A stretch of 64,000 nt of DNA, from positions 5,298-69,297 of the forward strand of contig JBDREN010000083.1 in NCBI GenBank assembly GCA_043819795.1. Reading direction: 5' to 3'. A program made the translations under genes and the position numbers. Below, one piece after another: positions 1 through 24,305 of the stretch (position 1 is the stretch's first letter; every line of letters starts with the position of its first letter). This stretch comes from Elusimicrobiota bacterium (lineage in GTDB: Bacteria; Elusimicrobiota; Elusimicrobia; UBA1565). The notes below the pieces were generated by a model. It saw only the letters and a list, made by a program, of their open reading frames with translations. It was not told the origin of the DNA and made no database searches.

Positions 1-714
1 CCCCTTCAGGAAATCCCCGTCTCCCGGACGGGAGCGGTCGAGCGCCGCGTGCTCCGTCTTCATGAGGTCCACCACGAGGCGGGGCGGATCCTTCGCGACG
101 AAGGCGCTGTACGGGACCGGCCGGTCCAGCTTGAGCCGCACCTGGTCGGCGCCGACCTCGACGCCGCGCAGCGAGGCGACCCTCGCGGGCACGGGCGGCA
201 GGGGCGAGAGGATCCCGAGGGCCCGTCTAGCCGGGGAGCTCTCCGAAGCCGGGCCCGACAGCGGCCCCAGAGCGTCCTTCAGGTCGCCGGGGACGTCGGG
301 CACGAGGCGCAGCGACATCTCGGACCCGAGCCAATAAGTCCAATAGCGCGCCTCGGCGCTCAGGTCGAGTACGATCCGCGTCACCGGCACGGGATCGGTC
401 TCGAACTGACCGCTGCGGACGGCGCGGAACGGCGCGCCCCGCCCTTCCCACAAGCGCGGCGCCGCGTCGTGGACGGTATCGAAGAGGTCGACCACAAGGC
501 GCGGCGGGTCGTGGAGGAGGAAGGTCGCGTGCCGCGCGGGGTTGTCCAGCGAGATCTGAATCCCGTCCGAGAAGACCTGCACGCCCTGGAGGACGCTTTC
601 CGCCAGCGCCTGCCGGGGCGGCAGCGCGGACGCGACGACGAACGCGGCCAGCAGAGCCCCGGCGGCCGTGCGGGTGCCGCACCGGCAGACGTCTAGGTTT
701 TTCGGTTTCATCAT
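1..714 (-). CDS. AMIN-domain secreted protein, N-terminal part (gene runs off window start); signal peptide MMKPKNLDVCRCGTRTAAGALLAAFVVASALPPRQALA followed by three AMIN-like repeats (..PPRLVVDLFDT.., ..VTRIVLDLS.., ..PPRLVVDLMKT..); amidase AmiC-type or secretin-type N-terminus
   Basis: Hand translation of minus strand from ATG 714; open to position 1 in frame (no tta/cta/tca at positions =1 mod 3); start abuts OMP stop (TAAATGATG). Not in the supplied ORF track because it is truncated. Confidence 0.6.
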   Translation of the reverse strand, partial: MMKPKNLDVCRCGTRTAAGALLAAFVVASALPPRQALAESVLQGVQVFSDGIQISLDNPARHATFLLHDPPRLVVDLFDTVHDAAPRLWEGRGAPFRAVRSGQFETDPVPVTRIVLDLSAEARYWTYWLGSEMSLRLVPDVPGDLKDALGPLSGPASESSPARRALGILSPLPPVPARVASLRGVEVGADQVRLKLDRPVPYSAFVAKDPPRLVVDLMKTEHAALDRSRPGDGDFLKG

Positions 715-2379
715 TTAGAACATTACCCTCAGGTTGAAGGATGTACGGTCGTCTTTGTAGTTGAACTGGCCGCTGAAGCGCGAATGGCGCTGCCGCCGGC
801 CGTAGGCGATCCCGGTGGACAGCCAGCGCCGGACCGCGTAGTCGGCGCTCAGGGTCCCGCCGTAGAGATCGTCGCGCCGGTTGGCCGACTCCCCGGACAC
901 GGTGGACGACTCCGGGTAGCGGTCGGTCTGGAGGCTCCCGTCGATGGACACCTTCAGCTTGTGGTACGTATGGCTGGCGCCCAGGCTGGCCCCCGTCGCG
1001 ACGTAATAACGGTTGCTGGAGAAGGTCGCCTCGTTGATCCTGCGGAACGCGCCGATCCGCACATTGGTGCGGCTTCCCGGGGCGTAGACCAGCTGGACGG
1101 AGGTCAGCAGATTCCGAACGTCCCTGTCGCCGCCGGCGGGGGCGTAGTCGTAGCGGCGCAGCTGCGCGTCGGCCTGGACTCGCCCCGAGAGCTTCGCCGT
1201 CAGGCGCCCGTCCACCCCCAGCCCGAAGCGGTGGGACTTCGAATGCTTCCGCGCTCCCGCGGAGTAGTGGATGATCTGGCGGCCGTAGGCGGCGAACAGG
1301 CGCGTCTTCGGCTGCAGCCGTATGCCCGCCTCGCCTTCTATCGAAAGCTCGAAGCGGTTGAGGTTAGAGGAAAGAGACGGGTCGAGGTACTTGTGCAGCA
1401 CGTGCAGCCCGGAAAGCTTGTAGACGAAGCGCCGGCTGCGGGCGTGATCGACGCTCACGCCGAGATCGGCCTTCGTGCGCCGCTTCCGGGCGACGAGCTC
1501 GCTGAAGGCCGGGTCCTCCGTGTTGAGATAGGTCTCCCACGCGCGCATCGAGACGCCCCTGCGCCCCTTGTGGGCGAAAGCCACCTTGATGAGCTGATCC
1601 ACGGAGTTGTTGGCCTTCGGCTGCCGGGAGTACGTGGTCAGCTTCGAGTCGTAGACCACGTCCAGGCGGTTGCGCCGGTTGAACGGGACGGCGAAGTCCG
1701 CTCCCAGGTTGTTCTGGGTGATCCAGGAGCTCCTCACTCCTCCGCCGGTGCGAGCCCCGTTCGCCCTGTCGGGCGGGACGAGATAGATGTTCGAGTCGTA
1801 TGTCTGCCTCAGGCCGTAGTACGGATGCACCTCGATGACCAGGCGCAGCTCCGGCTTCTTGAAGCGCGCCATCTTGTCGAAGGCCCTGGCCAGCCCGGCG
1901 AGCGGGTCCCAGGCGGCGGGTGGAGCGGGCTCCTCGGGGAGCGGGGGCCTGAGGGGAGCGGGCAGCTCTCCGGCCTTGGGCCCGGTCAGAGGCACGAACT
2001 GCCCGGCTCCGACACCGACGGCGGCCGCGCCGCGGGGGGTGACCTCGACCTCCCCGGCGTGGACGAGCATATGCCCCTCCCCTTCCGCGATCAGGAACGT
2101 GAACGAGTCGCCCTTGTCCGCGCGGACCAGCGTCTCCTCCACCAGCAGCAGAGCGTCACCCTCGACGATGGACGCGCGCGCGCCGGAAGGCAGAGAATAG
2201 CCGGAAGAACCGGGAGCGAGGCGGACCGGCCGCTTGTCCACCTCCAGGAGCAGCTTGTCCGAAAAACCGATGACCTGCAGCTTCAGGTCCGCCTTCGTTT
2301 GAGCCAAGCAGGTGTTCGCCGCGATGAGAAGGCCGGCAGCCGCTATACAAGCGCGGATACTCCGGTCCCAGTCAATCAT
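715..2379 (-). CDS. outer-membrane beta-barrel protein (554 aa from MIDWDRSIRACIAAAGLLIAANTCLAQT signal peptide; C-terminal ...FNLRVMF aromatic terminus typical of OMPs)
   Basis: ORF 715..2553; internal Met at 2379 followed by signal peptide; alternating beta-strand pattern and C-terminal F. Confidence 0.6.
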   Translation of the reverse strand: MIDWDRSIRACIAAAGLLIAANTCLAQTKADLKLQVIGFSDKLLLEVDKRPVRLAPGSSGYSLPSGARASIVEGDALLLVEETLVRADKGDSFTFLIAEGEGHMLVHAGEVEVTPRGAAAVGVGAGQFVPLTGPKAGELPAPLRPPLPEEPAPPAAWDPLAGLARAFDKMARFKKPELRLVIEVHPYYGLRQTYDSNIYLVPPDRANGARTGGGVRSSWITQNNLGADFAVPFNRRNRLDVVYDSKLTTYSRQPKANNSVDQLIKVAFAHKGRRGVSMRAWETYLNTEDPAFSELVARKRRTKADLGVSVDHARSRRFVYKLSGLHVLHKYLDPSLSSNLNRFELSIEGEAGIRLQPKTRLFAAYGRQIIHYSAGARKHSKSHRFGLGVDGRLTAKLSGRVQADAQLRRYDYAPAGGDRDVRNLLTSVQLVYAPGSRTNVRIGAFRRINEATFSSNRYYVATGASLGASHTYHKLKVSIDGSLQTDRYPESSTVSGESANRRDDLYGGTLSADYAVRRWLSTGIAYGRRQRHSRFSGQFNYKDDRTSFNLRVMF

Positions 2380-2439
2380 CCTGGACGATGGGCGCGCCGC
2401 ATCCGATAGCGATTCCTCCTTACGACGACAATCCGGCAA

Positions 2440-2480
2440 GAAAAACGCCGCGGCGCCCCCCGCGGGGGGGTTTGTCGCGG
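2440..2480 (-). terminator. GC hairpin (CCCCCCCGCGGGGGG / CGCCGCGGCG) followed by TTTTTCTT on minus strand between LysM gene and OMP gene; terminator or attenuator
   Basis: Palindrome plus T-run read on minus strand; sits between a TTGACA-17-TATCCT promoter-like sequence and the AAGGAGG of the OMP leader. Confidence 0.3.
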
Positions 2481-2604
2481 CGTCAATGGTCCTAAAGTCC
2501 TTATAGGACTTTTGGGAACATCGAAGGATAACCGAAATTACGCGATTTGTCAAGACTCTACACGCTCTTTTCGCAAAGTAGCCTTACTGTGGCGGAGCCT
2601 GCCC

Positions 2605-3378
2605 TCACCTCTTGACCACCGGCACCAGCAGCTTCTGGCCCGGCGTCAGCTCCCCTCCGCGCTGGATCCTGTCGTGATTGGCCTGATACAGCTCGATCCA
2701 GCGCTCGGCGCTCCCGTAAAGCTTGGTCGCGATGCTGCGCAGCGTGTCTCCCCGCCGGACCACGTAGATCCGCGCCCGCGACTCCTCGGAGGGAAGGCCC
2801 CCGTCGCGGAGCGTGGCCTCGATGACGTCGAGGCGCTTGCGCGACTCCTCGGCCTCGCGCTTGGCGCGGCGCGCCTCCGCCTGGGCCTCTTCGACCTCCC
2901 TCTTGAGTTTGTCGAGCTCCTCGGACGACGGAGCGGGGACCTCGACAGAATCCCCCGCCTGCCCCGGATCCGGCGCGGCGGCCGCCGGCGCCTCGACCTG
3001 GATCACCTCCGGGGGACGCGAAGCCTTGGCCGCCCAGCCTGTTCCCGGCGGGGCCTCCACCGTCAAGCGGTAAGCCGCCGAGAGCGCCTCTTCGGGGATC
3101 GCGGAATCCTCTCCCAGGGTCGCGATGAAACGCCCCTTCTCGGCCAGAACGTAGCGGGACTCTCTCCAGACCTCCTTGCCACCGGCGAATTCGTTCCAAA
3201 GGCGGAAGTGCAGCAGGAAGGTCCCGTTCTGCGGTTGGCCTCCGGAATCGGTGAGCTCCCCGGAATATCGCAGGGTCGTCCTGCCCGCGGATGCCGGCAG
3301 ACACAGGATCATGACCGCCAGGGCCGCCAAAGCGCACGGACGAACGCCGGATGTGGATGTGTCGCGCGTCGTTCTCAT
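2605..3378 (-). CDS. LysM-domain periplasmic protein with signal peptide and central coiled coil (257 aa)
   Basis: Start MRTTRD at 3378 with GGAGGA SD; ATGA overlap with upstream response-regulator stop; C-terminal LysM motif YVVRRGDTLRSIATKLYG...YQANHDRI...L.PGQKL. Confidence 0.8.
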   Translation of the reverse strand: MRTTRDTSTSGVRPCALAALAVMILCLPASAGRTTLRYSGELTDSGGQPQNGTFLLHFRLWNEFAGGKEVWRESRYVLAEKGRFIATLGEDSAIPEEALSAAYRLTVEAPPGTGWAAKASRPPEVIQVEAPAAAAPDPGQAGDSVEVPAPSSEELDKLKREVEEAQAEARRAKREAEESRKRLDVIEATLRDGGLPSEESRARIYVVRRGDTLRSIATKLYGSAERWIELYQANHDRIQRGGELTPGQKLLVPVVKR

Positions 3379-4625
3379 GGGATCTCCTCCCGTATTCGTT
3401 CTTCGAAGGCCGACAAGGGCCGGACATGGACGGTGCCGGAGCCGTCCCGGCCCATCCATACGTCGTCGCCCCGCAGCGTGAAGCCGGACAGCGGCGCCCC
3501 CCCCTCGTTCAAGAGCGGGAGGCTGTAGACGGCCAGGACGCCCAGCCTGGCGTCGAGCCGGTGCCTGTAGATCATCCGCGTCTCCGAGTCGGCCGACCAG
3601 AAATACGAGCCGTCCTTGAAGATGGAGGAGGGGGCCCTGCCCGGGGCCGGATAGCTCTCGAGCACCGTCAAGCCGGCGTCGATCCCATGCTGATAGAACC
3701 GCCGCTCCGAGGCGTCGCTGGACCACAAGTAGCGACCGTCGAAATAGACCCCGGCGGGGTTCGGTCCCGGGCTCCGATAGGCGCGCACGAGAGAGAAACG
3801 CTCGTCGAGGCGGCGCTTCTGGATCTCGCGCTTCCAGGAGTCGCATACGTAGAGATGCTCGCCCGAAACGGCGATCCCCGTGATATGCGTCTCCGGCAGG
3901 TGAACGGAGCGGACGACCTCGAGGCGGTTGCCCCGGCGCTCGTACTCGTAGACGCTCTGCGTGACCCAGTCGGCGCTCCAGAGCCGGTCCCCGCGCCAGA
4001 CAAGCGCCGTGGCGTTCTCGTGGGGGATGGCGAAATCCCTGCCCGCCTGCCGTCCGTAGAGCGTCCAGAGGATCCAGGCGCAGAACGCTCCCGCGATGAG
4101 CGCGCCCGCCAGCAGCCACGGCCACCCGGACGCTTCGCGCTTCGCCGGCCCGGCGGACCGGCCGCGCGCCGGCAGAGGCGCGGGACGGGCGTCCAGCGGC
4201 GCGATGACCCCGCGGACCTTCTCCGCGAGACGGCGTCCGAGGACTCCCATCCCTTCCGGAGCCTTGCCGCCGGTGAGAACGCGGTCCACGGTCTCCCTCA
4301 GCTCCCGGTTGCTGAAAGGCTTGGCCAGATAGTGGCTCGCGCCCAGCTGCATGACTTCCACGGCCGACTCCACGCTGCCGTAGCCGGTCACCATCACGAC
4401 CGGCGTCGTCCCATCGACCTCCCGAAGCTTGCGCAGGATCTGCACGCCGTCCATCCCCGGCAGGCGCATGTCCAGCAAGACGAGGTCCGCGCCCTCGCGG
4501 GACAAAAACTGCAGCGCGGTGGGGCCGTCCCCGGCCTCGTAGACCTGGTGACCCAGCCGGCTAAGGACGTTCGCGAGCGCCATCCGCATGTCCGCTTCGT
4601 CGTCTACCACCAGGATGCGTGCCAT
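3375..4625 (-). CDS. response regulator with N-terminal REC domain, one TM helix and a C-terminal extracytoplasmic repeat (beta-propeller-like) domain
   Basis: MARILVVDDEADMRMALANVLSRLGHQVYEAGDG..LVLLDMRLPGMDG = CheY-like receiver; TM WPWLLAGALIAGAFCAWILWTLY; 5 repeats with (L/F)(W/Y)xxD(W/S) motifs. Confidence 0.85.
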   Translation of the reverse strand: MARILVVDDEADMRMALANVLSRLGHQVYEAGDGPTALQFLSREGADLVLLDMRLPGMDGVQILRKLREVDGTTPVVMVTGYGSVESAVEVMQLGASHYLAKPFSNRELRETVDRVLTGGKAPEGMGVLGRRLAEKVRGVIAPLDARPAPLPARGRSAGPAKREASGWPWLLAGALIAGAFCAWILWTLYGRQAGRDFAIPHENATALVWRGDRLWSADWVTQSVYEYERRGNRLEVVRSVHLPETHITGIAVSGEHLYVCDSWKREIQKRRLDERFSLVRAYRSPGPNPAGVYFDGRYLWSSDASERRFYQHGIDAGLTVLESYPAPGRAPSSIFKDGSYFWSADSETRMIYRHRLDARLGVLAVYSLPLLNEGGAPLSGFTLRGDDVWMGRDGSGTVHVRPLSAFEERIREEIP

Positions 4626-4626
4626 G

Positions 4627-7600
4627 TCATCCTCTCTTCGCTTCGACCGAAAGCGTCACAGTCGAGGTGCTGCCCGCGTCCTTCTTGCTCCGGAACTCGA
4701 AGGAACCGCCGTGCGCCGCGACGATCCGTTTCGCGATCGCCACGCCCAGCCCCAGGCCGCCGGCCTTCATGGTGTAGAACGGCCGGCCCACATCCTTGAC
4801 GTGCTCCGGCGCCACTCCGGCGCCGGTGTCGGAGACCTCGACGCGGACGGTCCCGCGCGCCGCCTGATAGCGGGCCCTGATCGTCAGAGTGCCTCCCTCC
4901 GGCATCGCCTCGATCGAGTTGAGCAGCAGGTGCAGCAACGCCTCCTTGAGCCGCTCCGAATCGCCGCGAAGCTCCGGGACACCCTCCGCGACATCCGCCA
5001 CGATCCTGATATGCTTCTCGTCGCACTGCCGGGCGACCTCCGCGACGGCCGAGTCGATCCACGCCTCGACCTCGAGCGCCTGCGGCTTCAGGCCCAGGGG
5101 GCGAGTGAAGTCCGTGAGCTGCTCCAGACGCTCCCGCAGGTTCCCGATCGCCCGGAGGATGGCGTCCATGGTCGCGCGCTCCTTGCCGCCGACCCACAAT
5201 CCGGAGAGCCGGTCCTCCGCCAGGCTCTGGATGATGCCCAGCGGGTTGCGGATCTGATGGGCGATCCCGAAGACGAGATCGGTGAGCTCGGTCTCGAAGG
5301 CCACCTGCGGCAGGCGCCCCGTCTCCGCCTCGGGCTTCAGCCCGGAGAGCAGCCGGTCGCGCAGCTGACGGAGCTCCCTCTGCCGCCGCTCGATGTCGAC
5401 CTCCGCCCCGGCAAGCTTGTCCTCGCGCCCCTGGGACTGCCTTTCCCTGGCCGTCATCTCCTCATCGAGCTTCCGGCGACGACGCTCGAGCTCGGCCTCC
5501 TCATTCTTGAGCCGCTCGCGCAGCTTCTTGTCCGTCCCCCGCAAGAGCTCCTCGACTTCCTCGCGGCGCCGCTCGACCTCCGCTTCCTTCTGAGCGGACT
5601 CGTCCATGAGGCGCTTCTCGCCGGACTGCTCGCGCTCCTTGAGCGCCTTATCGCGAGCGTCGAGCTCCGCCTCCCTCTTGTGAAGCTCGGACGACGCGGT
5701 TTCCTGCTGCTTCTGCAGGCGCTCGCCTTGGAGCCGCGCGGTCTGCTCGACCTGGACGGCGCTCTGCTCTTCGAGCTCCTTGCGGCGCTCATCGAACTCA
5801 GCCTCGAGCCTGGTGCGCTCCACCACGAGCCTCTTGCGGTTGGCGGCCAAGAGGGCCGACTCCTTCTCGGCCAGGACGGTCCGCATCTCGCGCTCGAGCT
5901 CCTCGCGACGCCGCGCCTGGTCCTCATCCGCCGCCCTCTGCGACTCGCGCAGCAGACGGCGCTCGTGCTCGAGCTGCGCGTCAAGGTCCCGCTCGTGCGC
6001 CAAACGGCGCTCCTCCCCCTGCTTCTCCAGGAGGTCCTCGCGCTTGCGCAGCTGATCCTCCAGGCTCTCCGCGTGCAGGCGGAACTCCTCCTCCTTCTCC
6101 TTGAGCTGCGCGCGGAGATCGTCCTCTTTGGTCTGCAGATCCCGGTCGTAACGCGCGCGCTCCTCGCGCCGGATGCCGCGACGCGCCTCCTCGACCTTGT
6201 GCAGGAACTCCTTCTGAAGCGCGGCGCGCTCGGCGTCGAGGCCCTCCTCGCGCCTGGCCATCTCATCGCGCAGAGCGACGTGCATCTCCTCGGACGACTT
6301 GCGCAGCTCCGCGCGGTTGCGCTCCTGAGCCTCGCTGACCTCATTGAGCAGCGCCTCCTCCCGCTTCTTCCACGCGCGCTGAAGCTCCTCTTCCCTGCCC
6401 AGATGCTCCCGCTGCAGGGCCGTCTCGCGCTCGCGGAAGTCGCGCTCGAGCTCGGCGCGGCGGGCGTCGAGCCCCGCACGGGCGCGCTCGAGCGCCTCGC
6501 GCTCCGCCGCGACGGACTGCCGCAGGTCGCTGCGCTCCCGCTCCAGCTCGGCCTCGCGTTCCTCGACCGACTCGCGCATGGCCGTCTCCTTGCGCGCGTA
6601 GGCTTCCCGCAGCTCCGTCTCCCGGGCCTTCAGCTTCCGGCGACTCTCCTCGACCTCGACCTCGAGCTCGGCCTTGGCCTTCGCCCAATCCTCCCGCAAC
6701 GCCTCCCGCTGCGCATCGAGATGACCCGAGACCTCCGCCTCGGCCTCCTCGCGCGCGCGCCGCAGCTCGGCCTCCTTCTCGCTGACCGCCTTCTCCAGAG
6801 CCCGCTCCCTCTCGCGGTACTCCCGGGCCACTCCGCTCTTAAACGACTCCAGCTCCCGGGACCGCCGCACCTCCTCGGCCGCGAGCTCGGCGCGCTCCCG
6901 CTCGAGCTCCCCGTGACGCGCCTGGTAGGCGGCCTGCAACTCCTCCTGCCGGTTGCGATACTCGGCCTCCAGGCCGGCCCGGGCCTTTTCGACGTCCCGA
7001 CTTCGCTCCGCCAGCGCGGCGCTCTTGCTCTCGATCTCCCGGACCTGCTCCTGCCGCTCCCGCTCGAAGCGCGCGGCCAGCTCGGTTCTCTGGTCGGCCA
7101 GCTCCTTGCGAAGCTCGGCCTCGCGATGAACGAAGGACTCCTCAAGAGCCTGCTCGCGCTTCCGGAGCGAATCCTCCACACGCTTTTGGGCCGCCCCCAG
7201 CCCCTCGGTCTGGCGTTCGAGCTCGGCCTGACGCGCGCGAACGCCCTGCTCCTGCTTCTGCTGCTCCATGGCCAGAGCATCGCGAAGCTCGGCCTCGCTC
7301 TGCGCGAACGACTCCTCAAGAGCCTGCTCGCGTTTCCGGAGCGAGTCCTCCACGCGCTTGCGGGCCGACTCCAACTCCTCGGTCTTACGTTCGAGCTCGG
7401 CCTGACGCGCGCGAACGGCCTGCTCCAGCGTCTGCTGCTCCGCGGCCAGCGTCTCGCGGTCGCGCTCGAAGCCGGCGCGCAGCTCCCGTTCGCGCAACGC
7501 CGAGGCGGAACGCACCCCCTCCTCCCGCGCCCGGAAGGCGTTCTCGAGCTGCGTCTCGCGCTCACGCAGGCTTTTCTCAACCTGTAATTTGGACGCGTCG

Positions 7601-10600
7601 AGTTCCCGCATCCGCCGCGCCAGCTCCGCCTCGAGGCGCTCGCGCTCAGCGGCGAGCTCCTCCTCTTTCTGCCGGACCGCCGATTCCACCTCGGCCGCGC
7701 GGTCGCCGTGCTCGCTCTCCAGCAGCGACCGCCGGTGCGCGAGCTCTTCTTGGAAAGCCTTGCGCTCCCGCTGCGTCCGGGCGGAAAGCTCCGCGTCCCG
7801 CTTGGCGAACCCCGCGCGCAGCTGTTCCTCCCGCGCCGAGTAGGCGCGCTGCAGATCGGCCTCACCCTCCCGCGCGCGCTCCTCGAGCGCGAGGCGAGCC
7901 TCCTCGAGCGCCTTTTCCTTGCGCGCGAGCTCGTCCTGTCGCTGCTCGGCGGCCTGATCGAGCTGCTTTTCCTTATATATGAGCTCGGCCTGGCGCTCGG
8001 CAAGGACGCGCTCGTGCTCCTCGTACGTCTCCTGAAGCCGCCGGCGCTCCTCGACGAGCGCGGCGCGCAGCTCGCTCTCTCGAGCCGCCAACGCCGAGCG
8101 CGACTCCTCCTTCCGCTTCTCGAACTCGCGCTCGAGCCGCGCCTCGCGTTCCTGCAGCCTCTTTTCCTCGTCCATCCGGGACGTCTCCAGCTCGCGCTTC
8201 TTGCGCCCCGTCTCGTCCTCGATGCGGGTGCGCTCGCGCTCGATGGCCTCCTCCCTCCCGCGCAACACCAGGTCCATCTCACGCTGACGGTCCTCGAACG
8301 CCCGGTGCATCTCGGCGCGCTCGCTCTCCGACTCCACCTTGCGCCGCTCAAGACGCTCCATGGCCTGGGCGCGCTCGTTGTTCGCGGCGTCCTCGCGCTT
8401 CCGGAAGTCCGACTCGAGCTCCGATAGACGCTGCTGGTGGGCCTTCTCCAGATCAGCCTCCTGGGACCGGATCGCCTTCTCCAGCTCGAAACGCAGGCGG
8501 TCCAGCTCACCCTCCCTTCGGTCGTACTCGGCCTCAAGCGCGGCGCGCTGCTTCTCAAGAGCCGCCTCGAGCTTCCGTCGAGACTCGTCCTCCCAGCGGG
8601 CCTCGCGCTCGTTGAGACGCTCCGTGAAGGACCTGAGCTCGGCCGCCAGGCGGTCCTCGGCCTCGCGCTTCGAAAGATCCTGCTTATGCTCCCATTCGGC
8701 CTTCAACTCGGCCTCGAGCTGGAGGAAGTTCTTCTGAAGCGCATCTTCGCGCTCCCGGTAGAGAGCGTCGAGAGCGGCCCGCTCGCGGGACTGATTGTCC
8801 TGCATCTCGGAGACCATCGCCTGCTCGCGCCGACGCAGATCCTCGCCAAGAGACTCGTCCTTGGACTTGTACTCAGCCTCGAGGGCCTGCCTCCGCGAGT
8901 CAAGGTCCTTGACGCGCGACTCCAGCTCGGCGGCCTGCGCCGCCATCGCCTTGCGATGCTCCTCCTGGAAGTGCTGGTACTCCTTCGCGATCTCCCTGCG
9001 CTGATGGTCCAGCCAGGCGTCGTTGCGCTTCTTCATCTCCGCGCGGGACTCCGCGAGGCGGCGCTTGTACTCGCGCTCGAGATTGTCCTGCTGGTTCTTC
9101 AGCTCGGCTTCCCGCTGGGCGATCGCCTCGCGCATCTCGCCTGCGATGCGCTCGGTCTCGTAGCGTATGCGAGCGCGATAGCTCTCGCGCTCCTCGTCGA
9201 CCTTCTGCAGCAGCTCGCTCTCACGCTGGCTCCACCGCTTCTCGAGCTCAGCCTCGCGCTCGAGATAGGACTTATCCAGCCTCGTCTCCTTCTCCCGCAT
9301 CTCCTTTTGGAGCTGCGCCTGCAGCTTCTCCAGCTCCAGCTGCTTGCGCTCGTATTCCTCCTCCAGGACCGCACGTTGCGACTCGAGCTGCGCCGCCCTC
9401 TTGACCTCGAACTCGGCCTCCGACTGGCGGACCTTGCGCTGGATCCCGTCCTCCTGCTCCTTGAGCGAGCGTTTGAGCTTCTCGGCGGACTCCTCCTCCA
9501 GGAGTTGGGCCTTGTGCGCCCGGTCATCCTTCAGCTGCTTCTCGAGGCTCACATAGTTCGAATGCAGGGTCTCCTCGCGGCTCCGGTAAAGCTCGTCGAG
9601 GGACTGACGCTCCCGCGTCAGGACGACCTGCTGCTCCTCGATGAAGCGTCTCTCCCTGAGACGCCACTCGTCGGCGAGCTCCTCCTCCCGCTTCCGGTGG
9701 TAAGCCTGGAGGGCGTCGCGCCGCTTGGCCAGCTCACCCTCCCGCTCGTTCGACTCGGCGTTGAGCGCCTCGAGGTGGGCGCGGGCGTGCTCCTTCTGCT
9801 GCTCCCGTTCGCGGATGGTCATGCGGCGCTGGCGCTCCAGCCACTGCTCCTTCTCCTTCTCGGACTCGGCCAGGGCGTCTCTCTTCCAAGCTTCGAACCG
9901 CACCGCCAGCTGCGAGTCCGCCTCCGCGAGGGCCGCGGCGTGCTGCTCCCGCTCCTTCTGACGCTCGGCCTCGAGCGCCTGCACGGTCTCCGCGAAGCGC
10001 TGCGCCTGCGCCTGGAGGGCTTCCTGCCGCCGCGAGAGGTATTCCCTCTCCTTGCCCGTCCATAGCTCCTGAAGGCCGCGCTCCATCTCGATGTACTTCT
10101 CCTCGCGCTGGGCTTCTCGGCGCTTCTGGGCCTCCTGAATGGAGACGCGCTCCGCCTCGTGCCGGCGCTCGCGCGACTGCAGGTCCTCCCAGAGCGCCCG
10201 CTTCTCCGCATCCAACTTCTCGAACTCTTCGCGGACGCGGCTCAGCTCCAGATCCTTCTCCGAAAGCTGCTTCTCGCGCTCCAGGAGCTCGCTCTGATGC
10301 CCTTCCTTCAGGTTCTTGACCCGAAGCTTCCACTCGGCCTCGCGCCGCTCGTACTCGGCGTCCAGGTGCCTGGCCTGCTGGAGCAGATGCCGGCCCTGCG
10401 CCTCCTTGAGCGCCCGGACCTCCGCGGCGTGAGCGTCCTTGGCTTCGGCCTCCCGGCGATCGTAGCGGTCCTCGAGGTCCCGCTCCAGGCGCGCGTAATC
10501 CTGCTTCATCTTCTCGGACCGGCCGAAGAGATCGGCCTCATCGCGCTGGCGCCGCTGGTCGTGCTCCTCCTTCGTCTTCTCCATCTCCATGCGGGCCGCG

Positions 10601-12225
10601 CGGCGCACCTGCTCCAGCGCGATCTCGTAGCGGCGCACCAGCTCGGCCTCCCGCAGGTGCCACTGCTTATCGAGGTTCTTCTCCTTCTGGATGTACTCCG
10701 AGATCACGGTCTGCTTCCACGTCCGGAACTGCTCCTCGATCGTCTGCTGGGTCCTCTCCAGCTCGGCGACCCGGGCCTGGTAGGCCTCCTCGAGCGTCCG
10801 GTCGCGCTGCTCGAACTGCGACTTCAGGGAAGCCCGCTCGGCCTCGACGGCCTTCTCATGCTCCTCGAGGAGCTCCATCTTGCGGCGCGTCCACTCCTCG
10901 CGCAGCGCGTTCTCCTTCGCCAAGTACTGCTCCTGCATCTCCACGTGCTTGTGCTGGGAGGCCTCCTCGAGCGCCTTCTCGCGCTCTTGCACGCGGTTCT
11001 CGGCCTCCGCCCAGCGGGCGTTGAACTCGGCTTCGAGGGCGGTGCGTTGGCGGTCCCCGTCGCGCTGGACCTCGGCCTCCCGCCGCTCGAGGTCCCGGGA
11101 CCGCGCCTGATACTCCTCCTCGAGGGCCTTGGCGCGCTGTCGCGCCCGCTCGGCGGCTTCCGCCTTTTCCTTCTCGAGCTCGTCCTCGACGCGCTTGAGC
11201 AGCTGCGCCTCCTTACGGATGTGGCTCTGCTGCTGCTGGGTCTCCATCTCGGCGTAACGCGTCTCCACGCTCTTCACACGCTTCTGGAAGTCCTCCTCCA
11301 GCTCCCGACGCCGGCGCTCGAGAAGCCCTTCGATCTCGCGCGAGCGGTCGGCCAGCGCGCGGGCACGCTCCTCGAACTGCTCCTGCACGGCCGTATCCAG
11401 CTTCTCACGCGCATCCTTCGCGCGCTGCCACAAGCCGTTCTCGAGCTCCGCCCAGGCGGCCTGCAGCTCGGCCTCGCGCTTGCCGTACTTCTCCTGCAGG
11501 GCGAGCTCCTTGGACCGGAACTCCCCGAAGAGCTTCTCCTCGCGCTCCTGGAGCTTGAGCTCGCCCTCCTTCGCGGCGGCGGCCAGCACCCGCTGGAACT
11601 CCTCGTTCTTGCGCCTAAGATCGAGTATCTCGCGCTCCTTGAGCTCGAGCTCCGCCTCGCGGTTCTTCAGCGTGTTGAGGATCTCCTCGTCGCGTTTCTG
11701 GCGCAGCCGCTGCACCATATCCTGGTCGCGGTGGAAACGGTTGACGAGCTCGGCCTTCTCGCGCTGGGAGGCCATCAGCTCGGCGTCGCGCTGCTCGAGA
11801 ATGCGCCTGAGCTCCCGCCACTGCTCCTCCTTGGAGCGGTGCGTGCCCTTCCACTGCTGGACCTCTGCCGTCAGGCGGGACAGCTCCTCGTCCATGTGCC
11901 CGCGGTCGCGCTCCACGCGCGTCCGTTCCTCTTCGCGGACCTCGAGACGCACACGGTCGCGCCAGCGCTGCTCCTGATCCCGATGATTCTTGCGCTCCTC
12001 CTCCCAGCCTTTGGACTCGTCCTTCCATGCGGCGACCTGTCTCGTCAACTCCTCCTTCTCCTGCTGGAGCATCTGCTGTCCGTTCTGGGCTTCCTGGAGG
12101 TTCCCCTTGAGGCGCACATTCATATCCTGGAGGTCACGGATCGTGGCCACGGCCCCCCGGATCGCAAGTCGCGCAGCTTCCAGATCGGTTATCTCTCGAT
12201 ATGCCTCTTCATCCCATGGGTTCAT
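4627..12225 (-). CDS. giant (~2530 aa) coiled-coil sensor histidine kinase: ~2250 aa of E/R/K/A/L/Q-rich heptad sequence then HisKA (IAHQIRNPL) + HATPase_c (GTGLGLGVA)
   Basis: Single ORF 4627..12309; real start MNPWDEEAYRE at 12225 supplied by upstream repeat unit (GGGAGGcgaccATGA); no TM segments evident; internal 58-codon tandem duplication. Confidence 0.85.
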   Translation of the reverse strand: MNPWDEEAYREITDLEAARLAIRGAVATIRDLQDMNVRLKGNLQEAQNGQQMLQQEKEELTRQVAAWKDESKGWEEERKNHRDQEQRWRDRVRLEVREEERTRVERDRGHMDEELSRLTAEVQQWKGTHRSKEEQWRELRRILEQRDAELMASQREKAELVNRFHRDQDMVQRLRQKRDEEILNTLKNREAELELKEREILDLRRKNEEFQRVLAAAAKEGELKLQEREEKLFGEFRSKELALQEKYGKREAELQAAWAELENGLWQRAKDAREKLDTAVQEQFEERARALADRSREIEGLLERRRRELEEDFQKRVKSVETRYAEMETQQQQSHIRKEAQLLKRVEDELEKEKAEAAERARQRAKALEEEYQARSRDLERREAEVQRDGDRQRTALEAEFNARWAEAENRVQEREKALEEASQHKHVEMQEQYLAKENALREEWTRRKMELLEEHEKAVEAERASLKSQFEQRDRTLEEAYQARVAELERTQQTIEEQFRTWKQTVISEYIQKEKNLDKQWHLREAELVRRYEIALEQVRRAARMEMEKTKEEHDQRRQRDEADLFGRSEKMKQDYARLERDLEDRYDRREAEAKDAHAAEVRALKEAQGRHLLQQARHLDAEYERREAEWKLRVKNLKEGHQSELLEREKQLSEKDLELSRVREEFEKLDAEKRALWEDLQSRERRHEAERVSIQEAQKRREAQREEKYIEMERGLQELWTGKEREYLSRRQEALQAQAQRFAETVQALEAERQKEREQHAAALAEADSQLAVRFEAWKRDALAESEKEKEQWLERQRRMTIREREQQKEHARAHLEALNAESNEREGELAKRRDALQAYHRKREEELADEWRLRERRFIEEQQVVLTRERQSLDELYRSREETLHSNYVSLEKQLKDDRAHKAQLLEEESAEKLKRSLKEQEDGIQRKVRQSEAEFEVKRAAQLESQRAVLEEEYERKQLELEKLQAQLQKEMREKETRLDKSYLEREAELEKRWSQRESELLQKVDEERESYRARIRYETERIAGEMREAIAQREAELKNQQDNLEREYKRRLAESRAEMKKRNDAWLDHQRREIAKEYQHFQEEHRKAMAAQAAELESRVKDLDSRRQALEAEYKSKDESLGEDLRRREQAMVSEMQDNQSRERAALDALYREREDALQKNFLQLEAELKAEWEHKQDLSKREAEDRLAAELRSFTERLNEREARWEDESRRKLEAALEKQRAALEAEYDRREGELDRLRFELEKAIRSQEADLEKAHQQRLSELESDFRKREDAANNERAQAMERLERRKVESESERAEMHRAFEDRQREMDLVLRGREEAIERERTRIEDETGRKKRELETSRMDEEKRLQEREARLEREFEKRKEESRSALAARESELRAALVEERRRLQETYEEHERVLAERQAELIYKEKQLDQAAEQRQDELARKEKALEEARLALEERAREGEADLQRAYSAREEQLRAGFAKRDAELSARTQRERKAFQEELAHRRSLLESEHGDRAAEVESAVRQKEEELAAERERLEAELARRMRELDASKLQVEKSLRERETQLENAFRAREEGVRSASALRERELRAGFERDRETLAAEQQTLEQAVRARQAELERKTEELESARKRVEDSLRKREQALEESFAQSEAELRDALAMEQQKQEQGVRARQAELERQTEGLGAAQKRVEDSLRKREQALEESFVHREAELRKELADQRTELAARFERERQEQVREIESKSAALAERSRDVEKARAGLEAEYRNRQEELQAAYQARHGELERERAELAAEEVRRSRELESFKSGVAREYRERERALEKAVSEKEAELRRAREEAEAEVSGHLDAQREALREDWAKAKAELEVEVEESRRKLKARETELREAYARKETAMRESVEEREAELERERSDLRQSVAAEREALERARAGLDARRAELERDFRERETALQREHLGREEELQRAWKKREEALLNEVSEAQERNRAELRKSSEEMHVALRDEMARREEGLDAERAALQKEFLHKVEEARRGIRREERARYDRDLQTKEDDLRAQLKEKEEEFRLHAESLEDQLRKREDLLEKQGEERRLAHERDLDAQLEHERRLLRESQRAADEDQARRREELEREMRTVLAEKESALLAANRKRLVVERTRLEAEFDERRKELEEQSAVQVEQTARLQGERLQKQQETASSELHKREAELDARDKALKEREQSGEKRLMDESAQKEAEVERRREEVEELLRGTDKKLRERLKNEEAELERRRRKLDEEMTARERQSQGREDKLAGAEVDIERRQRELRQLRDRLLSGLKPEAETGRLPQVAFETELTDLVFGIAHQIRNPLGIIQSLAEDRLSGLWVGGKERATMDAILRAIGNLRERLEQLTDFTRPLGLKPQALEVEAWIDSAVAEVARQCDEKHIRIVADVAEGVPELRGDSERLKEALLHLLLNSIEAMPEGGTLTIRARYQAARGTVRVEVSDTGAGVAPEHVKDVGRPFYTMKAGGLGLGVAIAKRIVAAHGGSFEFRSKKDAGSTSTVTLSVEAKRG

Positions 12226-12348
12226 GGTCGCCTCCCATGGAGATGGACGCGGCCATCCCCTGCGCGATGCTCGGTCATGGTCGCCTCCCACGGCAGTCGA
12301 CGCGACCATTTCCTGCGCTATGCTCGGTCATAACACTGCCTCCAGGTA
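12222..12348 (-). repeat. two tandem 57-nt copies of SD/start-codon-bearing intergenic repeat (mini-ORFs MTEHSAGNGRVDCRGRRP* and MTEHRAGDGRVHLHGRRP*), with own GGAGG SD, ATGA-coupled to each other and to the giant HK start
   Basis: Reverse complement matches repeat at 50606-50719 and 59231-59397; internal 8-bp inverted repeat ATGGTCGC/GCGACCAT; GGGAGG 6 nt before terminal ATG. Confidence 0.7.
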
Positions 12349-12547: not shown

Positions 12548-12774
12548 TAACAGTCCGTGGCAAAAGTCTTCCGGGGCCTGCGATCGCCTGGATGCGGCCT
12601 GCGCCCGCGTTGCTCCTCGGTCACACCGGGCCCCGGCAGGGGCCCAGTGCCGCACGACCTCAGGAAATGCTTCGGAGCGCTGTCATCCCGTAGAGGGATG
12701 CTACCTCGTCGCGCCTTGGCTCGGCTCGCCCCGGACGATTTCGCCATCCGAAATACTTTTGCCACGGACTGTTA
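12548..12774. mobile_element. MITE-like element: 20-bp perfect terminal inverted repeats TAACAGTCCGTGGCAAAAGT flanking ~187 bp, in intergenic region between two HK genes
   Basis: Left IR 12548-12567, right IR 12755-12774 (exact reverse complement); right IR overlaps stop codon of PAS-HK gene; symmetric spurious ORFs MAKVFR on both strands. Confidence 0.45.
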
Positions 12775-13839
12775 AGGCCGCGATCGAGCGGGGAAGACAA
12801 CGGTGACGGCCGTCCCTCGGCCGGCCTCGCTGTCGAAGGAGATGGTCGCCTCGTGCTCGGCCAGGACGCGCTTGGCGAGATAGAGCCCCAGACCCGTGCC
12901 GTCCTCTTTGGTCGTGAAGAAGGGCGCGCTGACCTTCGCCAACACCTCGGGCGCCATCCCCGCGCCCGAGTCCCCCACGACGAGACGCGCCCCCCCCCGC
13001 TCCGGGACGTCCGTGACGACGCGCAGGCGCCCCCCTTTCGGCATGGCCTCGATCGCGTTGACCAGCAGGTTATGGACCACGGCGCGGACATGCTGCTCGT
13101 CGAGGAGCAGTCTCGGGATGTCGCCGAGCCGCACATCGAGCTCGATCCGCTGCTTCTGGCACATCTTCTCGACGAGACGGACGACGCCGCGCGCCACCTC
13201 GTTGAGCGAGCCCTCGCGCAAGAGAGACTTCCCCACCTTGGCGAAGTCCAGAAGGGCCCGTATCGAAAGCGACCCGTGCCGGGCGTTGCGGAGGATCATC
13301 TCGAGGTTCTCTTTCATCTTGGAGTCGGGGGAGAGGGACTCGAGCCCGAACTCGGCCGTGCTGGCGATGACGTGCAGCGGCGTGCGCATCTCGTGAGCGA
13401 AGGTCGCCGCCATTCGCCCGACAGCGCTGAAGCGCTCCATCCTGACCAACGCCTCCTGGACGGCCTTGTGCTCGGGGGCCGTCTCGAAGTCGGCCACGGG
13501 GGGGCTGATCATGACGAGGAAGGCCTCGGGGCCCTTCCCCAGCGAGCGGACGGTCAAGAACACCCTTTCCGGGCTCCCGTCGCGGCGCGTCATCCGCGCC
13601 TCGTAGTTTTTGAGCACCTTCACGTTGCAGGCCGCCTTGAGCAATCCGACGCATTCCTCCCGCCTCGGGAAGAACTCCGCGAAGTCGCGATCGACAGCCT
13701 CCTCGAGGGGGACGCCAAGGAGCTCGGCGGCTCCGCGGGACCACGTCCGGACCACGCGGGAACCGTCGAGCCCGACGAGCGCATCCTCGGACTCGTCGAA
13801 CATGCAGGCGAAAAGGCGGTCTTTCAACCGTTCTTCCAT
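12772..13839 (-). CDS. PAS-domain sensor histidine kinase (PAS + HisKA FAHEMRTPL + HATPase_c)
   Basis: Motifs FAHEMRTPLHVI, NLLVNAIEAM, GDSGAGM, GTGLGLYLAKR. Confidence 0.85.
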   Translation of the reverse strand: MEERLKDRLFACMFDESEDALVGLDGSRVVRTWSRGAAELLGVPLEEAVDRDFAEFFPRREECVGLLKAACNVKVLKNYEARMTRRDGSPERVFLTVRSLGKGPEAFLVMISPPVADFETAPEHKAVQEALVRMERFSAVGRMAATFAHEMRTPLHVIASTAEFGLESLSPDSKMKENLEMILRNARHGSLSIRALLDFAKVGKSLLREGSLNEVARGVVRLVEKMCQKQRIELDVRLGDIPRLLLDEQHVRAVVHNLLVNAIEAMPKGGRLRVVTDVPERGGARLVVGDSGAGMAPEVLAKVSAPFFTTKEDGTGLGLYLAKRVLAEHEATISFDSEAGRGTAVTVVFPARSRP

Positions 13840-14028: not shown

Positions 14029-14919
14029 ATGAAGCCCGAGTCACCAACCGCAGCGCAGAAGCCGGCCGAGATCCGCGAGGGCCTGTGGAAGATCAAGCTG
14101 CCCAATCCGAAGTCCTTCTTCAAGATCGGGGTCGGCAAGAAGCACGCCCAGGCGAACTCTCTGTTCCTGGAGATCGACGGCAAGCGCCGCTTCGAGATCG
14201 GAAACGACTGCGACACCTGCCACTTCTGGTTCAAATGCCTGCAGGATCCTAAGATCTTCGCCCAGAAGAAAGTCGTCAACCTCCCGAAGTCCTTATCGGT
14301 GCCGCGCCCCCTCGACGCAAAGCTCATCCGCGAGATCCTCCCGGTGATCGAGCTCATGGACAAGGGGGATCACTACATATTCAACACGAAGCTCCAGCTC
14401 GCCGGACCGTACCGTTCCGACGACGAGTCCTCCTACTTCTACAACAGCGAGTTCATGGAGATATGGGACATCGAGGACCCCGCCTCCGAGGACCTCCTCT
14501 CCGGCTGGGAGCATTACGAGGGCAAGACCCCGCGCGTCTTTCGGCACGACGGTGTGATCGAAAAGCAGTTCGACTTCGTGATCCCTCTCGTCCCCCAACA
14601 ACGTCTCAAGCAGGAGAACATACGCGTCTACCAGCAGATGATCGCGGGCGGGGACCGGCCGCGGGTCCTGCTGCTGGGCATGCTCCACCGCCCCGTCCCC
14701 GGGAGCGTCTCCTCCGGACAGACGAAGAACCTGCATTCGTACTTCGCGGGCTTCGTGCTCGACGGGCACCACAAGCTGGCCGCCTATCAGCGCGCCGGGG
14801 TCCCGGTGAACTCCCTCGTAGTCTTGTCCCAGAAGGCCAGCAAGTACTTCCTGCTCGAGGGCGAATCCGCCCCTCAACGGACGCGCCTCGAGGACCGCCT
14901 GGCCTCGATGGCGACCTGA
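14029..14919 (+). CDS. hypothetical cytoplasmic protein (296 aa), lower GC than surroundings, no recognisable domain
   Basis: ORF with AGGAG SD and strong promoter; codon composition less GC-skewed. Confidence 0.6.
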   Translation: MKPESPTAAQKPAEIREGLWKIKLPNPKSFFKIGVGKKHAQANSLFLEIDGKRRFEIGNDCDTCHFWFKCLQDPKIFAQKKVVNLPKSLSVPRPLDAKLIREILPVIELMDKGDHYIFNTKLQLAGPYRSDDESSYFYNSEFMEIWDIEDPASEDLLSGWEHYEGKTPRVFRHDGVIEKQFDFVIPLVPQQRLKQENIRVYQQMIAGGDRPRVLLLGMLHRPVPGSVSSGQTKNLHSYFAGFVLDGHHKLAAYQRAGVPVNSLVVLSQKASKYFLLEGESAPQRTRLEDRLASMAT

Positions 14920-23572: not shown

Positions 23573-23597
23573 AGCCGGAGGCCAAGCGAGACATCCC

Positions 23598-24293: not shown

Positions 24294-24305
24294 CGGTACG
24301 GCTCC

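What the first reader, a model, noticed from the sequence alone, without database searches (positions are those of the whole stretch)
3375..4625. Response regulator with REC - TM - extracytoplasmic beta-propeller-like topology
The N-terminal CheY-like receiver is cytoplasmic (no signal peptide). A single TM helix and a ~250-aa repeat domain with five (L/F)W..D(W/S)-type blades follow. This is an inside-out layout for an RR, in which phosphorylation would control a periplasmic module. The gene is translationally coupled (ATGA) to the downstream LysM gene and sits 1 nt after the giant HK.
Basis: partly seen in the sequence, partly recalled or inferred. Interest (0 to 1): 0.7.

Follow-up and report, generated by a model that had tools for sequence, protein, structure and literature searches.

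The report
Membrane response regulator with periplasmic propeller
This gene encodes a two-component response regulator whose phosphorylatable receiver lies in the cytoplasm while its only other domain, a five-bladed beta-propeller, is predicted to sit outside the inner membrane; no regulator built this way turned up in the literature searched, and it is conserved across the uncultivated phylum Elusimicrobiota together with a giant coiled-coil kinase and a cell-wall-binding protein.

Summary

The family is essentially restricted to Elusimicrobiota. A matching histidine kinase lies directly upstream in 35 of 35 evaluable loci, and a protein ending in a LysM domain is in the operon in 25 of 26.

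Paralogues fuse the same TM-propeller directly to a long cytoplasmic coiled coil. That coiled coil carries the same N-terminal head motif as the giant kinase here, so coiled coil and propeller form one trans-membrane unit. In this locus the link between them is a phosphotransfer step.

The most likely mechanism is inferred, not shown: phosphorylation-driven receiver dimerisation clusters the periplasmic propellers and changes their engagement with the LysM/peptidoglycan/outer-membrane partners. Outside-in sensing and a pure anchoring role remain open. It is a new variant of a known kind.

The parts
3375..4625 (-). Response-regulator gene (416 aa): REC - linker - TM - five-bladed propeller
   Evidence: ORF and translation. 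More than 100 full-length homologues at 34-69% identity, all those named being Elusimicrobiota. AF2 model with mean pLDDT 89.6.
4272..4625 (-). Receiver (REC) domain, residues 1-118. D8/D9, D52 (phospho-acceptor), T80, Y99 and K102 are intact.
4122..4271 (-). Flexible linker, residues 119-168 (Pro/Ala/Arg/Gly-rich)
   Evidence: pLDDT 42-58. Length from REC end to TM is 16-67 aa (median 44) across the family, and mean column conservation is 0.37 against 0.69 for REC.
4053..4121 (-). Single transmembrane helix, residues 169-191
   Evidence: KD19 of 2.05, the only strongly hydrophobic segment. Conserved in position but not in sequence in 65/65. Modelled as helix 169-191 with pLDDT about 90.
3393..4040 (-). 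Five-bladed beta-propeller, residues 196-411 (YWTD/NHL-like blades), predicted periplasmic and seated 4-5 residues after the TM helix
4627..12309 (-). Cognate soluble histidine kinase (2560 aa as listed; probable true start is the ATG at 12225). It has an N-terminal head motif, an approximately 2290-aa proline-free coiled coil, and C-terminal HisKA + HATPase_c (about 4645..5280).
   Evidence: HATPase_c 1.4e-22 and HisKA 1.6e-3. No TM (max KD19 1.16) and no Pro between res 31 and 2326. An HK of this type is directly upstream of the RR in 35/35 evaluable loci.
11980..12225 (-). Conserved N-terminal head motif of the coiled-coil kinase (ITDLEAARLAIRGAVATIRDLQ...)
   Evidence: Aligns with the N-termini of the other giant HKs and of the HK-less coiled-coil-TM-propeller fusions P0133, P0143 and P0146. 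The head HMM hits these ORFs at 1e-12 to 1e-40.
2605..3378 (-). Secreted protein (257 aa): signal peptide, small N-domain, Pro/Ala linker, coiled coil, C-terminal LysM. Its start overlaps the RR stop (ATGA).
   Evidence: LysM PF01476 at 1.1e-6; sequence. A protein ending in LysM is present in 25 of 26 loci with enough flanking sequence.
715..2382 (-). Outer-membrane beta-barrel (BBP2_2 / EpsL-like). The likely start is ATG 2382, not TTG 2553.
   Evidence: PF10082 at 1.1e-9 and TIGR03014 EpsL at 7.4e-17, the latter below its cut-off. Conserved after the LysM gene in 12 loci of this clade. Promoter-like and terminator-like sites lie in the spacer.
1..714 (-). Protein with two AMIN domains, cut by the window edge; it starts immediately after the barrel stop.
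   Evidence: AMIN PF11741 at 3e-14. Homologues lie downstream of the barrel in L010-L013 and L016.
12772..13839 (-). Second, small PAS histidine kinase upstream of the giant kinase
   Evidence: PAS + HisKA + HATPase_c. Conserved at this position in at least 10 related loci. There is no other REC in the 64-kb window.

Best explanation
This is a genuine, phosphorylatable response regulator anchored in the inner membrane with N-in/C-out topology. Its only output domain is a non-catalytic five-bladed YWTD/NHL-type beta-propeller seated on the periplasmic face of the membrane. It is the dedicated partner of the soluble kinase encoded 1 nt upstream, which carries a proline-free coiled-coil stalk of about 2290 aa. 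Together they belong to an Elusimicrobiota-specific envelope module. That module also contains a secreted coiled-coil/LysM peptidoglycan-binding protein and, in this clade, an outer-membrane barrel and an AMIN protein.

Proposed mechanism (inferred): the kinase phosphorylates D52. As in other receivers, phosphorylation promotes REC dimerisation or oligomerisation. Because the REC-TM linker is flexible, the signal crosses the membrane by proximity, by clustering or re-pairing of the TM-propellers, and not by a piston or rotation. Clustering changes the avidity of the propellers for their periplasmic partner, most likely the LysM protein, peptidoglycan or the outer-membrane barrel. This would be inside-out signalling.

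In paralogues the same coiled coil is covalently joined to the same TM-propeller. The phosphotransfer step therefore stands where a peptide bond stands elsewhere, which makes a trans-envelope link switchable.
For: Shown by tool results:
- The REC domain has every catalytic residue conserved.
- There is one TM helix in 65/65 homologues.
- The five-bladed propeller model has high confidence, and its fold matches are 3mbr, 3nok and 3qqz.
- Residues invariant across the 65 full-length homologues in the propeller are only the repeated structural D/W/L positions (D219, W220, D262, L300, W301, D304), with no invariant Glu, His or Lys. There is no Glu_cyclase_2 or other Pfam hit above threshold.
- Signal-anchored stand-alone propellers exist.
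- Coiled-coil-TM-propeller fusions carry the same head motif as this kinase, and they occur as paralogues in the same genomes as the RR version.
- The HK is adjacent in 35/35 evaluable loci and the LysM protein is in the operon in 25/26.
- The genes are tightly spaced: a 1-nt gap, an ATGA overlap and a 0-nt gap.
- The kinase has no TM and no recognisable sensor domain.

From established knowledge: phosphorylation-driven dimerisation through the alpha4-beta5-alpha5 face is the common activation mode of receivers, and LapD shows that bacteria use inside-out signalling to control periplasmic partners (PMC3032553).
Against: No experiment or co-folding links the propeller to the LysM protein, the barrel or peptidoglycan; the partner is inferred from gene linkage only. 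Topology rests on hydropathy and homologue architecture, not on a dedicated predictor. The positive-inside bias is weak (mean K+R 2.7 on the N-side against 2.0 on the C-side). The direction of information flow is not determined by any result. Some clades have a minimal 218-258-aa kinase without the coiled coil, so the coiled coil is not essential to the RR's function. The neighbourhoods of the fused paralogues are not conserved, so they give no functional clue.
Confidence: 0.42

Rival explanations
1. Outside-in co-sensor. The periplasmic propeller is the sensory domain, as in PknD (kinase-TM-NHL propeller) or in ToxR-like regulators with the same N-in/one-TM/C-out layout. Ligand or partner binding changes REC pairing, and so changes how REC accepts phosphate from, sequesters or feeds back on the otherwise sensor-less soluble kinase(s).
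For: Neither the giant kinase nor the minimal 218-258-aa kinases have a TM segment, and neither the giant kinase's catalytic C-terminal 400 aa nor its N-terminal 300 aa gave any sensor-domain hit; the minimal kinases were sized and matched with the in-house kinase HMM only. The propeller is therefore the only extracytoplasmic domain in the phospho-pathway. Propellers are common periplasmic sensor domains of two-component proteins (own knowledge: Reg_prop in hybrid two-component systems, PknD NHL propeller). Two kinases converge on one receiver in this window.
Against: No downstream cytoplasmic effector for REC~P is encoded in the operon, and there is no other REC or DNA-binding regulator in the window. 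The fusions that replace HK+REC by a plain coiled coil have no signalling output, which fits a structural link better than a sensor. The flexible linker transmits conformational signals poorly in this direction too.
Confidence: 0.25
2. Regulated anchor or landmark. The TM-propeller is a fixed envelope anchor, positioned by peptidoglycan or LysM contacts, and REC is simply the docking site that recruits or releases the giant coiled-coil kinase at that site. Nothing changes in the periplasm.
For: Covalent coiled-coil-TM-propeller paralogues exist. The linkers are flexible in both versions. The propeller shows structural-repeat conservation only.
Against: HK-RR complexes are normally transient and catalytic, not stable tethers (established knowledge). 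All phosphorylation residues are strictly conserved, so chemistry and not mere docking is under selection. Clades with minimal kinases lack any coiled coil to anchor.
Confidence: 0.2
3. Phospho-regulated periplasmic enzyme. The propeller is a divergent type-I (plant/bacterial) glutaminyl cyclase or another propeller hydrolase.
For: The best whole-domain structural matches are the Xanthomonas, Myxococcus, Zymomonas and papaya glutaminyl cyclases.
Against: Identity in the structural alignment is 11-16%. There is no hit to PF05096 even at E <= 10. The profile search of PDB sequences finds YWTD and Vgb-lyase repeats, not cyclases. No invariant Glu, His, Lys or Asn lies outside the repeated structural motif in 65 homologues.
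Confidence: 0.04
4. Not membrane-spanning. The hydrophobic helix is a peripheral or oligomerisation helix, and the propeller is a cytoplasmic protein-binding output domain.
For: No dedicated topology predictor could be run, and the positive-inside bias is weak.
Against: The segment is 23 residues long, charge-free, with KD 2.05, and is conserved in position but not in sequence, which is typical of a TM anchor. Homologous propellers occur directly behind short N-terminal signal-anchors. The operon partners are all envelope proteins: LysM, an outer-membrane barrel and AMIN.
Confidence: 0.06

Closest known systems
LapD (c-di-GMP inside-out receptor, Pseudomonas; PMC3032553)
   Same: A cytoplasmic signal-receiving module is joined through the inner membrane to a periplasmic output domain that captures a periplasmic partner. 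This is the concept of inside-out signalling in bacteria.
   Different: LapD senses c-di-GMP with degenerate GGDEF/EAL domains, has two TM helices plus a HAMP relay, and has a different periplasmic fold. Here the input is His-Asp phosphotransfer, there is one TM helix, the linker is disordered, and the output is a propeller. There is no homology.
PknD of Mycobacterium tuberculosis and ToxR-like membrane regulators (own knowledge)
   Same: The topology is identical: an N-terminal cytoplasmic signalling domain, one TM helix and a C-terminal extracytoplasmic domain. In PknD that domain is an NHL beta-propeller of the same broad repeat class.
   Different: The cytoplasmic domain is a Ser/Thr kinase in PknD, or a DNA-binding winged helix in ToxR, and the signal flows outside-in. 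PknD's propeller has six blades. Neither carries a receiver domain.
Type-I (plant/bacterial) glutaminyl cyclases: 3mbr, 3nok, 3nol, 2iwa
   Different: Identity is 11-16%, there is no PF05096 match, and no conserved candidate catalytic residues were found. The cyclases are soluble or secreted enzymes and are not fused to REC.
E. coli YjiK C-terminal domain (PF06977, 'SdiA-regulated'; 3qqz)
   Different: There is no sequence relationship (hhalign probability 0.1%). Its function is unknown and it has no two-component link.
YWTD / LDL-receptor class B and NHL propeller repeats; virginiamycin B lyase
   Same: Blade-level sequence similarity, with the motif hydrophobic-W-x-x-D in strand 2. The profile hits LRP2 at 1.7e-13, LRP6 at 1e-8 and Vgb lyase at 1.2e-8. 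Giant repeat proteins with PF24684 hits appear in the phmmer search.
   Different: Those propellers have six or seven blades, and this one closes with five. No Pfam repeat model reaches its threshold.
Membrane-anchored archaeal RR output domain MetOD3 (PMC5847659)
   Same: It is a response regulator whose output region is membrane-anchored, and it is rare and lineage-specific.
   Different: It is a different, tiny family in methanogens. The paper describes no extracytoplasmic propeller, no conserved envelope operon and no giant kinase.

Membership tests
Two-component response regulators (REC, PF00072) | Receiver-domain profile match above the curated threshold | tested here: met
Two-component response regulators (REC, PF00072) | Phospho-acceptor Asp, acidic pair, conserved Thr/Ser, aromatic switch and Lys | tested here: met
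   D52, Y99, K102 and P103 are invariant in 65/65. D8 and D9 are Asp in all 64 sequences that cover those columns (the 65th is N-terminally truncated). Position 80 is Thr in 64 and Ser in 1.
Two-component response regulators (REC, PF00072) | Cognate histidine kinase with DHp and CA domains | tested here: met
   HisKA and HATPase_c are present in the upstream gene. A homologous kinase is directly upstream in 35 of 35 loci with upstream sequence.
Two-component response regulators (REC, PF00072) | Actual phosphotransfer from kinase to D52 | not testable with these tools
   This needs an in vitro phosphotransfer assay.
Classical RR classes (OmpR, NarL, NtrC, CheY, enzymatic outputs) | Cytoplasmic DNA-binding, enzymatic or protein-binding output, or a stand-alone receiver | tested here: not met
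   No Pfam or NCBIfam output-domain match was found. NCBIfam hits cover residues 1-123 only. The rest is a linker, a TM helix and the propeller.
Type-I glutaminyl cyclase (PF05096) | Five-bladed propeller fold | tested here: met
Type-I glutaminyl cyclase (PF05096) | Sequence-profile membership | tested here: not met
   There is no PF05096 hit at E <= 10 for the isolated domain. No cyclase appears among 44 PDB sequences matched by the family profile at E <= 10.
Type-I glutaminyl cyclase (PF05096) | Conserved catalytic Glu and substrate-binding residues | tested here: inconclusive
   No residue-level structural alignment was available. Indirectly, the propeller has no invariant Glu, Lys, Asn or His in 65 homologues.
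YWTD / NHL-type propeller repeats | Blade sequence motif detectable by profile | tested here: met
   LRP2 1.7e-13, LRP4 2.5e-10, LRP6 1e-8, Vgb lyase 1.2e-8. SGL and NHL Pfam hits are sub-threshold.
YWTD / NHL-type propeller repeats | Six-bladed closure | tested here: not met
   There are five blades of four strands plus one N-terminal closing strand.
YjiK / SdiA-regulated (PF06977) | Sequence-profile membership | tested here: not met
LapD-type inside-out receptors | c-di-GMP-binding EAL/GGDEF module, HAMP domain, LapG-binding periplasmic domain | tested here: not met
   None of these domains was found. The resemblance is conceptual only.

The most novel reading that the evidence does not exclude
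The locus encodes a switchable trans-envelope tether. A cytoplasmic coiled-coil filament, estimated at about 340 nm, with a conserved head is coupled through a His-Asp phosphotransfer step, which stands where paralogues have a peptide bond, to a periplasmic propeller. That propeller docks onto a peptidoglycan-bound LysM/coiled-coil protein and an outer-membrane barrel. Phosphorylation would then mechanically or spatially couple a cytoskeleton-like element to the cell wall and outer membrane, for example for cell shape, division-site or pole marking, or positioning of surface proteins. This would be a use of two-component signalling with no known precedent.
Probability: 0.2. Interest if true: 0.85.

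Novelty: new variant of a known kind. Interest (0 to 1): 0.68.

Why it matters
Response regulators are taught as cytoplasmic switches. Their catalogued outputs bind DNA, RNA or proteins, or catalyse reactions, inside the cell. A conserved family whose only output domain lies beyond the inner membrane would extend His-Asp signalling to direct control of, or by, the periplasm.

The natural series of architectures makes the question experimentally tractable:
- propeller alone;
- coiled coil-TM-propeller;
- kinase plus REC-TM-propeller.

It also flags an unannotated five-bladed propeller domain family with 3,635 hits at E <= 0.001 in the representative library, many of them matching at blade level only. 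Alongside it are an extraordinary class of giant coiled-coil kinases and a phylum-specific envelope module in Elusimicrobiota, a lineage with almost no experimental cell biology.

Tried and rejected
1. A single-sequence AlphaFold run gave a poor model (pLDDT 51). It was superseded by the alignment-based model.
2. The idea that the propeller is a glutaminyl cyclase was rejected on sequence and conservation grounds, despite the top fold match.
3. Membership of YjiK/PF06977 was rejected.
4. A link to polysaccharide export was considered. One fused paralogue (P0133) follows Wza-like and Wzc-like genes, and the window barrel resembles EpsL below threshold. Four other paralogue loci show unrelated neighbours, so this was not pursued.
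5. A link to type-9-secretion-like sorting was considered. Some clades have CHU_C/FlgD_ig-type C-terminal domains and weak PorP/SprF or TraF_2 matches in the longer LysM proteins. All these matches are sub-threshold, and none occurs in this window, so the idea is kept only as a lead.
6. A profile search with the kinase head motif returned only short fragments without names and was uninformative.
7. A 'pseudo-receiver' in the covalent fusion P0188 is only weakly supported (hhalign E 0.025; not aligned).
8. The window protein is not on record in the contig index, so neighbourhoods were taken from homologues.
9. The afdb50 fold library was unavailable.
10. The genome scan with the diverse alignment A2 failed for lack of a conserved stretch and was repeated with A3.
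11. Literature searches for membrane-anchored or transmembrane response regulators, and for REC plus propeller, found no description of this architecture. Galperin's 2006 and 2010 censuses could not be read, so an earlier passing mention cannot be excluded.
Full report
**1. The observation**

The minus-strand ORF 3375..4625 encodes 416 aa with strong coding signal (GC3 0.89). The upstream kinase ends with TGA at 4629..4627 and the regulator starts with ATG at 4625, a gap of 1 nt. The regulator's TGA (3377..3375) overlaps the ATG (3378..3376) of the next gene as ATGA.

- Residues 4-113 match the receiver-domain model at 7.8e-31.
- There is one hydrophobic segment, about residues 168-190. It is charge-free, with a 19-residue Kyte-Doolittle mean of 2.05 against 1.12 for the next-best peak.
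- The C-terminal part contains five repeats with a hydrophobic-W-x-x-D core at residues 215, 258, 300, 342 and 389. Blade-to-blade similarity exceeds residue shuffles by z = 17.9.

The repeat domain is about 216 aa, not about 250.

**2. Structure**

A single-sequence AlphaFold2 run was poor (pLDDT 51). With an alignment of 65 homologues (A1) the model has mean pLDDT 89.6. It shows:

- a canonical (beta-alpha)5 receiver (res 1-118, pLDDT above 90);
- a low-confidence linker (res 119-168, pLDDT 42-58);
- a helix at 169-191;
- beginning four residues later, 21 strands arranged as five four-stranded blades plus an N-terminal closing strand (res 196-411, pLDDT 97-98).

At sequence level the domain has no Pfam family; only sub-threshold SGL and NHL hits appear. 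A family profile instead finds YWTD (LDL-receptor class B) propellers and virginiamycin B lyase among solved structures (LRP2 1.7e-13, LRP6 1e-8, Vgb lyase 1.2e-8). There is no relation to YjiK (hhalign probability 0.1%).

The domain is thus a five-bladed closure built from YWTD/NHL-like blades. Its invariant residues across the 65 full-length homologues (D219, W220, D262, L300, W301, D304) are the repeated structural positions. No Glu, His, Lys or Asn is invariant, which argues for a binding scaffold and against a cyclase or hydrolase.

**3. Topology**

No dedicated predictor was available, so the argument is indirect but has three independent legs.

- The receiver has every residue needed for phosphorylation, and its kinase has no TM segment (max KD 1.16). 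The N-terminus must therefore be cytoplasmic, and with one TM helix the C-terminus is outside.
- Stand-alone homologues of the propeller begin with short, positively charged N-tails followed by one hydrophobic helix. These are classical signal-anchors (for example P0123, P0244, P0256).
- Other homologues carry 400-900 aa of cytoplasmic coiled coil before the same TM-propeller (P0133, P0143, P0145, P0146).

The positive-inside bias is only weak (K+R 2.7 against 2.0). The operon partners are all envelope proteins (below).

**4. Family and context**

More than 100 full-length homologues (34-69% identity) were found. Every one that carries an organism name is Elusimicrobiota, and Pfam annotates only the receiver in them.

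A scan of one genome per species found 47 loci: 38 in MAGs labelled Elusimicrobia or Elusimicrobiota, one in an unclassified bacterial MAG, one in Firestonebacteria, and weak matches, mostly covering only part of the domain, elsewhere.

In-house HMMs were run over 37 non-redundant loci with REC and propeller in one ORF.

- A kinase of the same DHp/CA type lies directly upstream in 35 of 35 loci that have upstream sequence.
- Kinase size ranges from a minimal 218 aa to more than 3160 aa.
- A protein ending in coiled coil plus LysM is in the operon in 25 loci. Of the other 12, 11 lack 5' sequence, so it is present in 25 of 26 evaluable loci.
- In the window's clade (12 loci) the order is kinase, regulator, LysM protein, BBP2_2/EpsL-like outer-membrane barrel. 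In five of these loci and in the window a double-AMIN protein follows.
- In other clades a longer LysM protein precedes the kinase.
- A small PAS kinase upstream of the giant kinase is also conserved. The window contains no second receiver, so two kinases may feed one regulator.

**5. The kinase and the 'Rosetta stone'**

The window kinase (4627..12309; probable true start 12225) has these features:

- a HisKA/HATPase_c core at its C-terminus;
- no TM segment;
- no proline between residues 31 and 2326;
- a composition of 21% Glu, 16% Arg, 12% Ala and 10% Leu.

This amounts to an uninterrupted coiled-coil-type helix of about 2290 residues. Assuming about 0.15 nm rise per residue (my estimate, not a tool result), that is roughly 340 nm.

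Its N-terminus carries a conserved head motif (ITDLEAARLAIRGAVATIRDLQ). The same motif heads the other giant kinases and also the kinase-less, receiver-less coiled-coil-TM-propeller proteins (HMM hits 1e-12 to 1e-40). Both versions co-occur as paralogues in single genomes:

- GWA2_69_24: P0004 and P0133, both with locus-tag prefix A2X36;
- LacPavin MAG_67_8: L022 and L045;
- binchicken_co248_100: L019 and L047.

The coiled coil and the TM-propeller therefore work as one unit across the membrane. In this locus the covalent bond is replaced by a kinase-to-receiver step.

**6. Mechanism**

Shown: the parts, their order, their conservation and their linkage. Inferred: everything about function.

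The REC-TM linker is disordered, 16-67 aa long and poorly conserved, so helix-piston or rotation coupling is unlikely. The best-supported model is phosphorylation-driven receiver dimerisation or oligomerisation that clusters the propellers at the outer face of the inner membrane. This would alter their engagement with a periplasmic partner, for which the tightly linked LysM protein, peptidoglycan, the barrel and the AMIN protein are the candidates. That is inside-out signalling in the sense of LapD (PMC3032553).

I give this model about 0.42. The rivals are:

- outside-in sensing by the propeller, with PknD/ToxR-like logic (0.25);
- a static anchor that docks the giant kinase (0.20);
- a cytoplasmic, non-spanning arrangement (0.06);
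- a cyclase-like enzyme (0.04).

**7. Comparison and novelty**

The regulator passes every testable criterion for a response regulator but fits none of the output classes. Literature searches found no description of a receiver-TM-extracytoplasmic-domain regulator. The nearest mention is a rare 'membrane-anchored' archaeal output domain, MetOD3 (PMC5847659). Two census papers could not be read, so an earlier passing mention cannot be excluded.

I classify it as a new variant of a known kind: two-component signalling with an unprecedented output location and an unannotated propeller family. Interest is about 0.68. The architecture is robust and surprising for the field, and the natural fusion series offers clear experiments. 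Function remains inferential, and the host phylum is hard to work with.

Noticed in passing
window 4627..12309 (-): The giant histidine kinase has an approximately 2290-residue stretch with no proline and no TM segment (E 21%, R 16%, A 12%, L 10%). Its true start is probably the ATG at 12225 (MNPWDEE..., as in homologues), not 12309. Homologous kinases range from 218 aa to more than 3160 aa, and in L005 the coiled coil is split into two genes.
   Followed up: partly
window 12772..13839 (-): A second, small PAS-HisKA-HATPase kinase is conserved just upstream of the giant kinase in at least 10 related loci. No second receiver domain exists anywhere in the 64-kb window, so two kinases may converge on one regulator.
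   Followed up: partly
window 14029..14919 (+): A 296-aa cytoplasmic protein with no Pfam match is divergently transcribed from the operon. It is conserved next to the operon in 8 other loci (phmmer 1e-50 to 1e-150).
   Followed up: partly
window 15168..20408 (+): A 1746-aa ORF has good coding signal (GC3 0.85) and no Pfam hit at E <= 0.001.
   Followed up: no
window 2383..2604 (-): The spacer between the LysM gene and the barrel gene holds a sigma-70-like site (TTGACA-17-TATCCT, 2553..2525) and a GC hairpin with a T-run (2465..2448). The listed TTG start at 2553 is therefore unlikely, and ATG 2382 (MIDWDRS..., followed by a signal peptide) is the probable barrel start. The barrel may be separately transcribed or attenuated.
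   Followed up: partly
window 1..714 (-): A protein with two AMIN domains (peptidoglycan- or septum-targeting modules) starts immediately after the barrel stop and is cut by the window edge. Homologues of 229-364 aa (ORF-frame lengths) follow the barrel in L010-L013 and L016.
   Followed up: partly
L003 8001..11450 (P0133); also L045, L033, L008: Paralogues join the head motif, the coiled coil, the TM helix and the propeller in one polypeptide with no kinase or receiver. P0133 comes from the same genome as the RR-type P0004 and follows Wza-like and Wzc-like genes, but other such paralogues have unrelated neighbours.
   Followed up: yes
L030, L034, L038 (upstream of the minimal kinase): In clades with a minimal 218-258-aa kinase, the operon begins with surface-type proteins ending in a shared C-terminal motif (...GVYIYQVQA..NGTVVVAR; CHU_C/FlgD_ig-like in L005 and L006). 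A 480-530-aa LysM protein follows, whose N-terminal part gives weak matches to outer-membrane barrel families (TraF_2, FadL, PorP/SprF).
   Followed up: partly
window 22544..26563: An envelope-biogenesis cluster lies downstream: heptosyltransferase (Glyco_transf_9), DUF4254, a PMT_2-type glycosyltransferase and prolipoprotein diacylglyceryl transferase (Lgt). This fits a diderm, LPS-bearing host.
   Followed up: no
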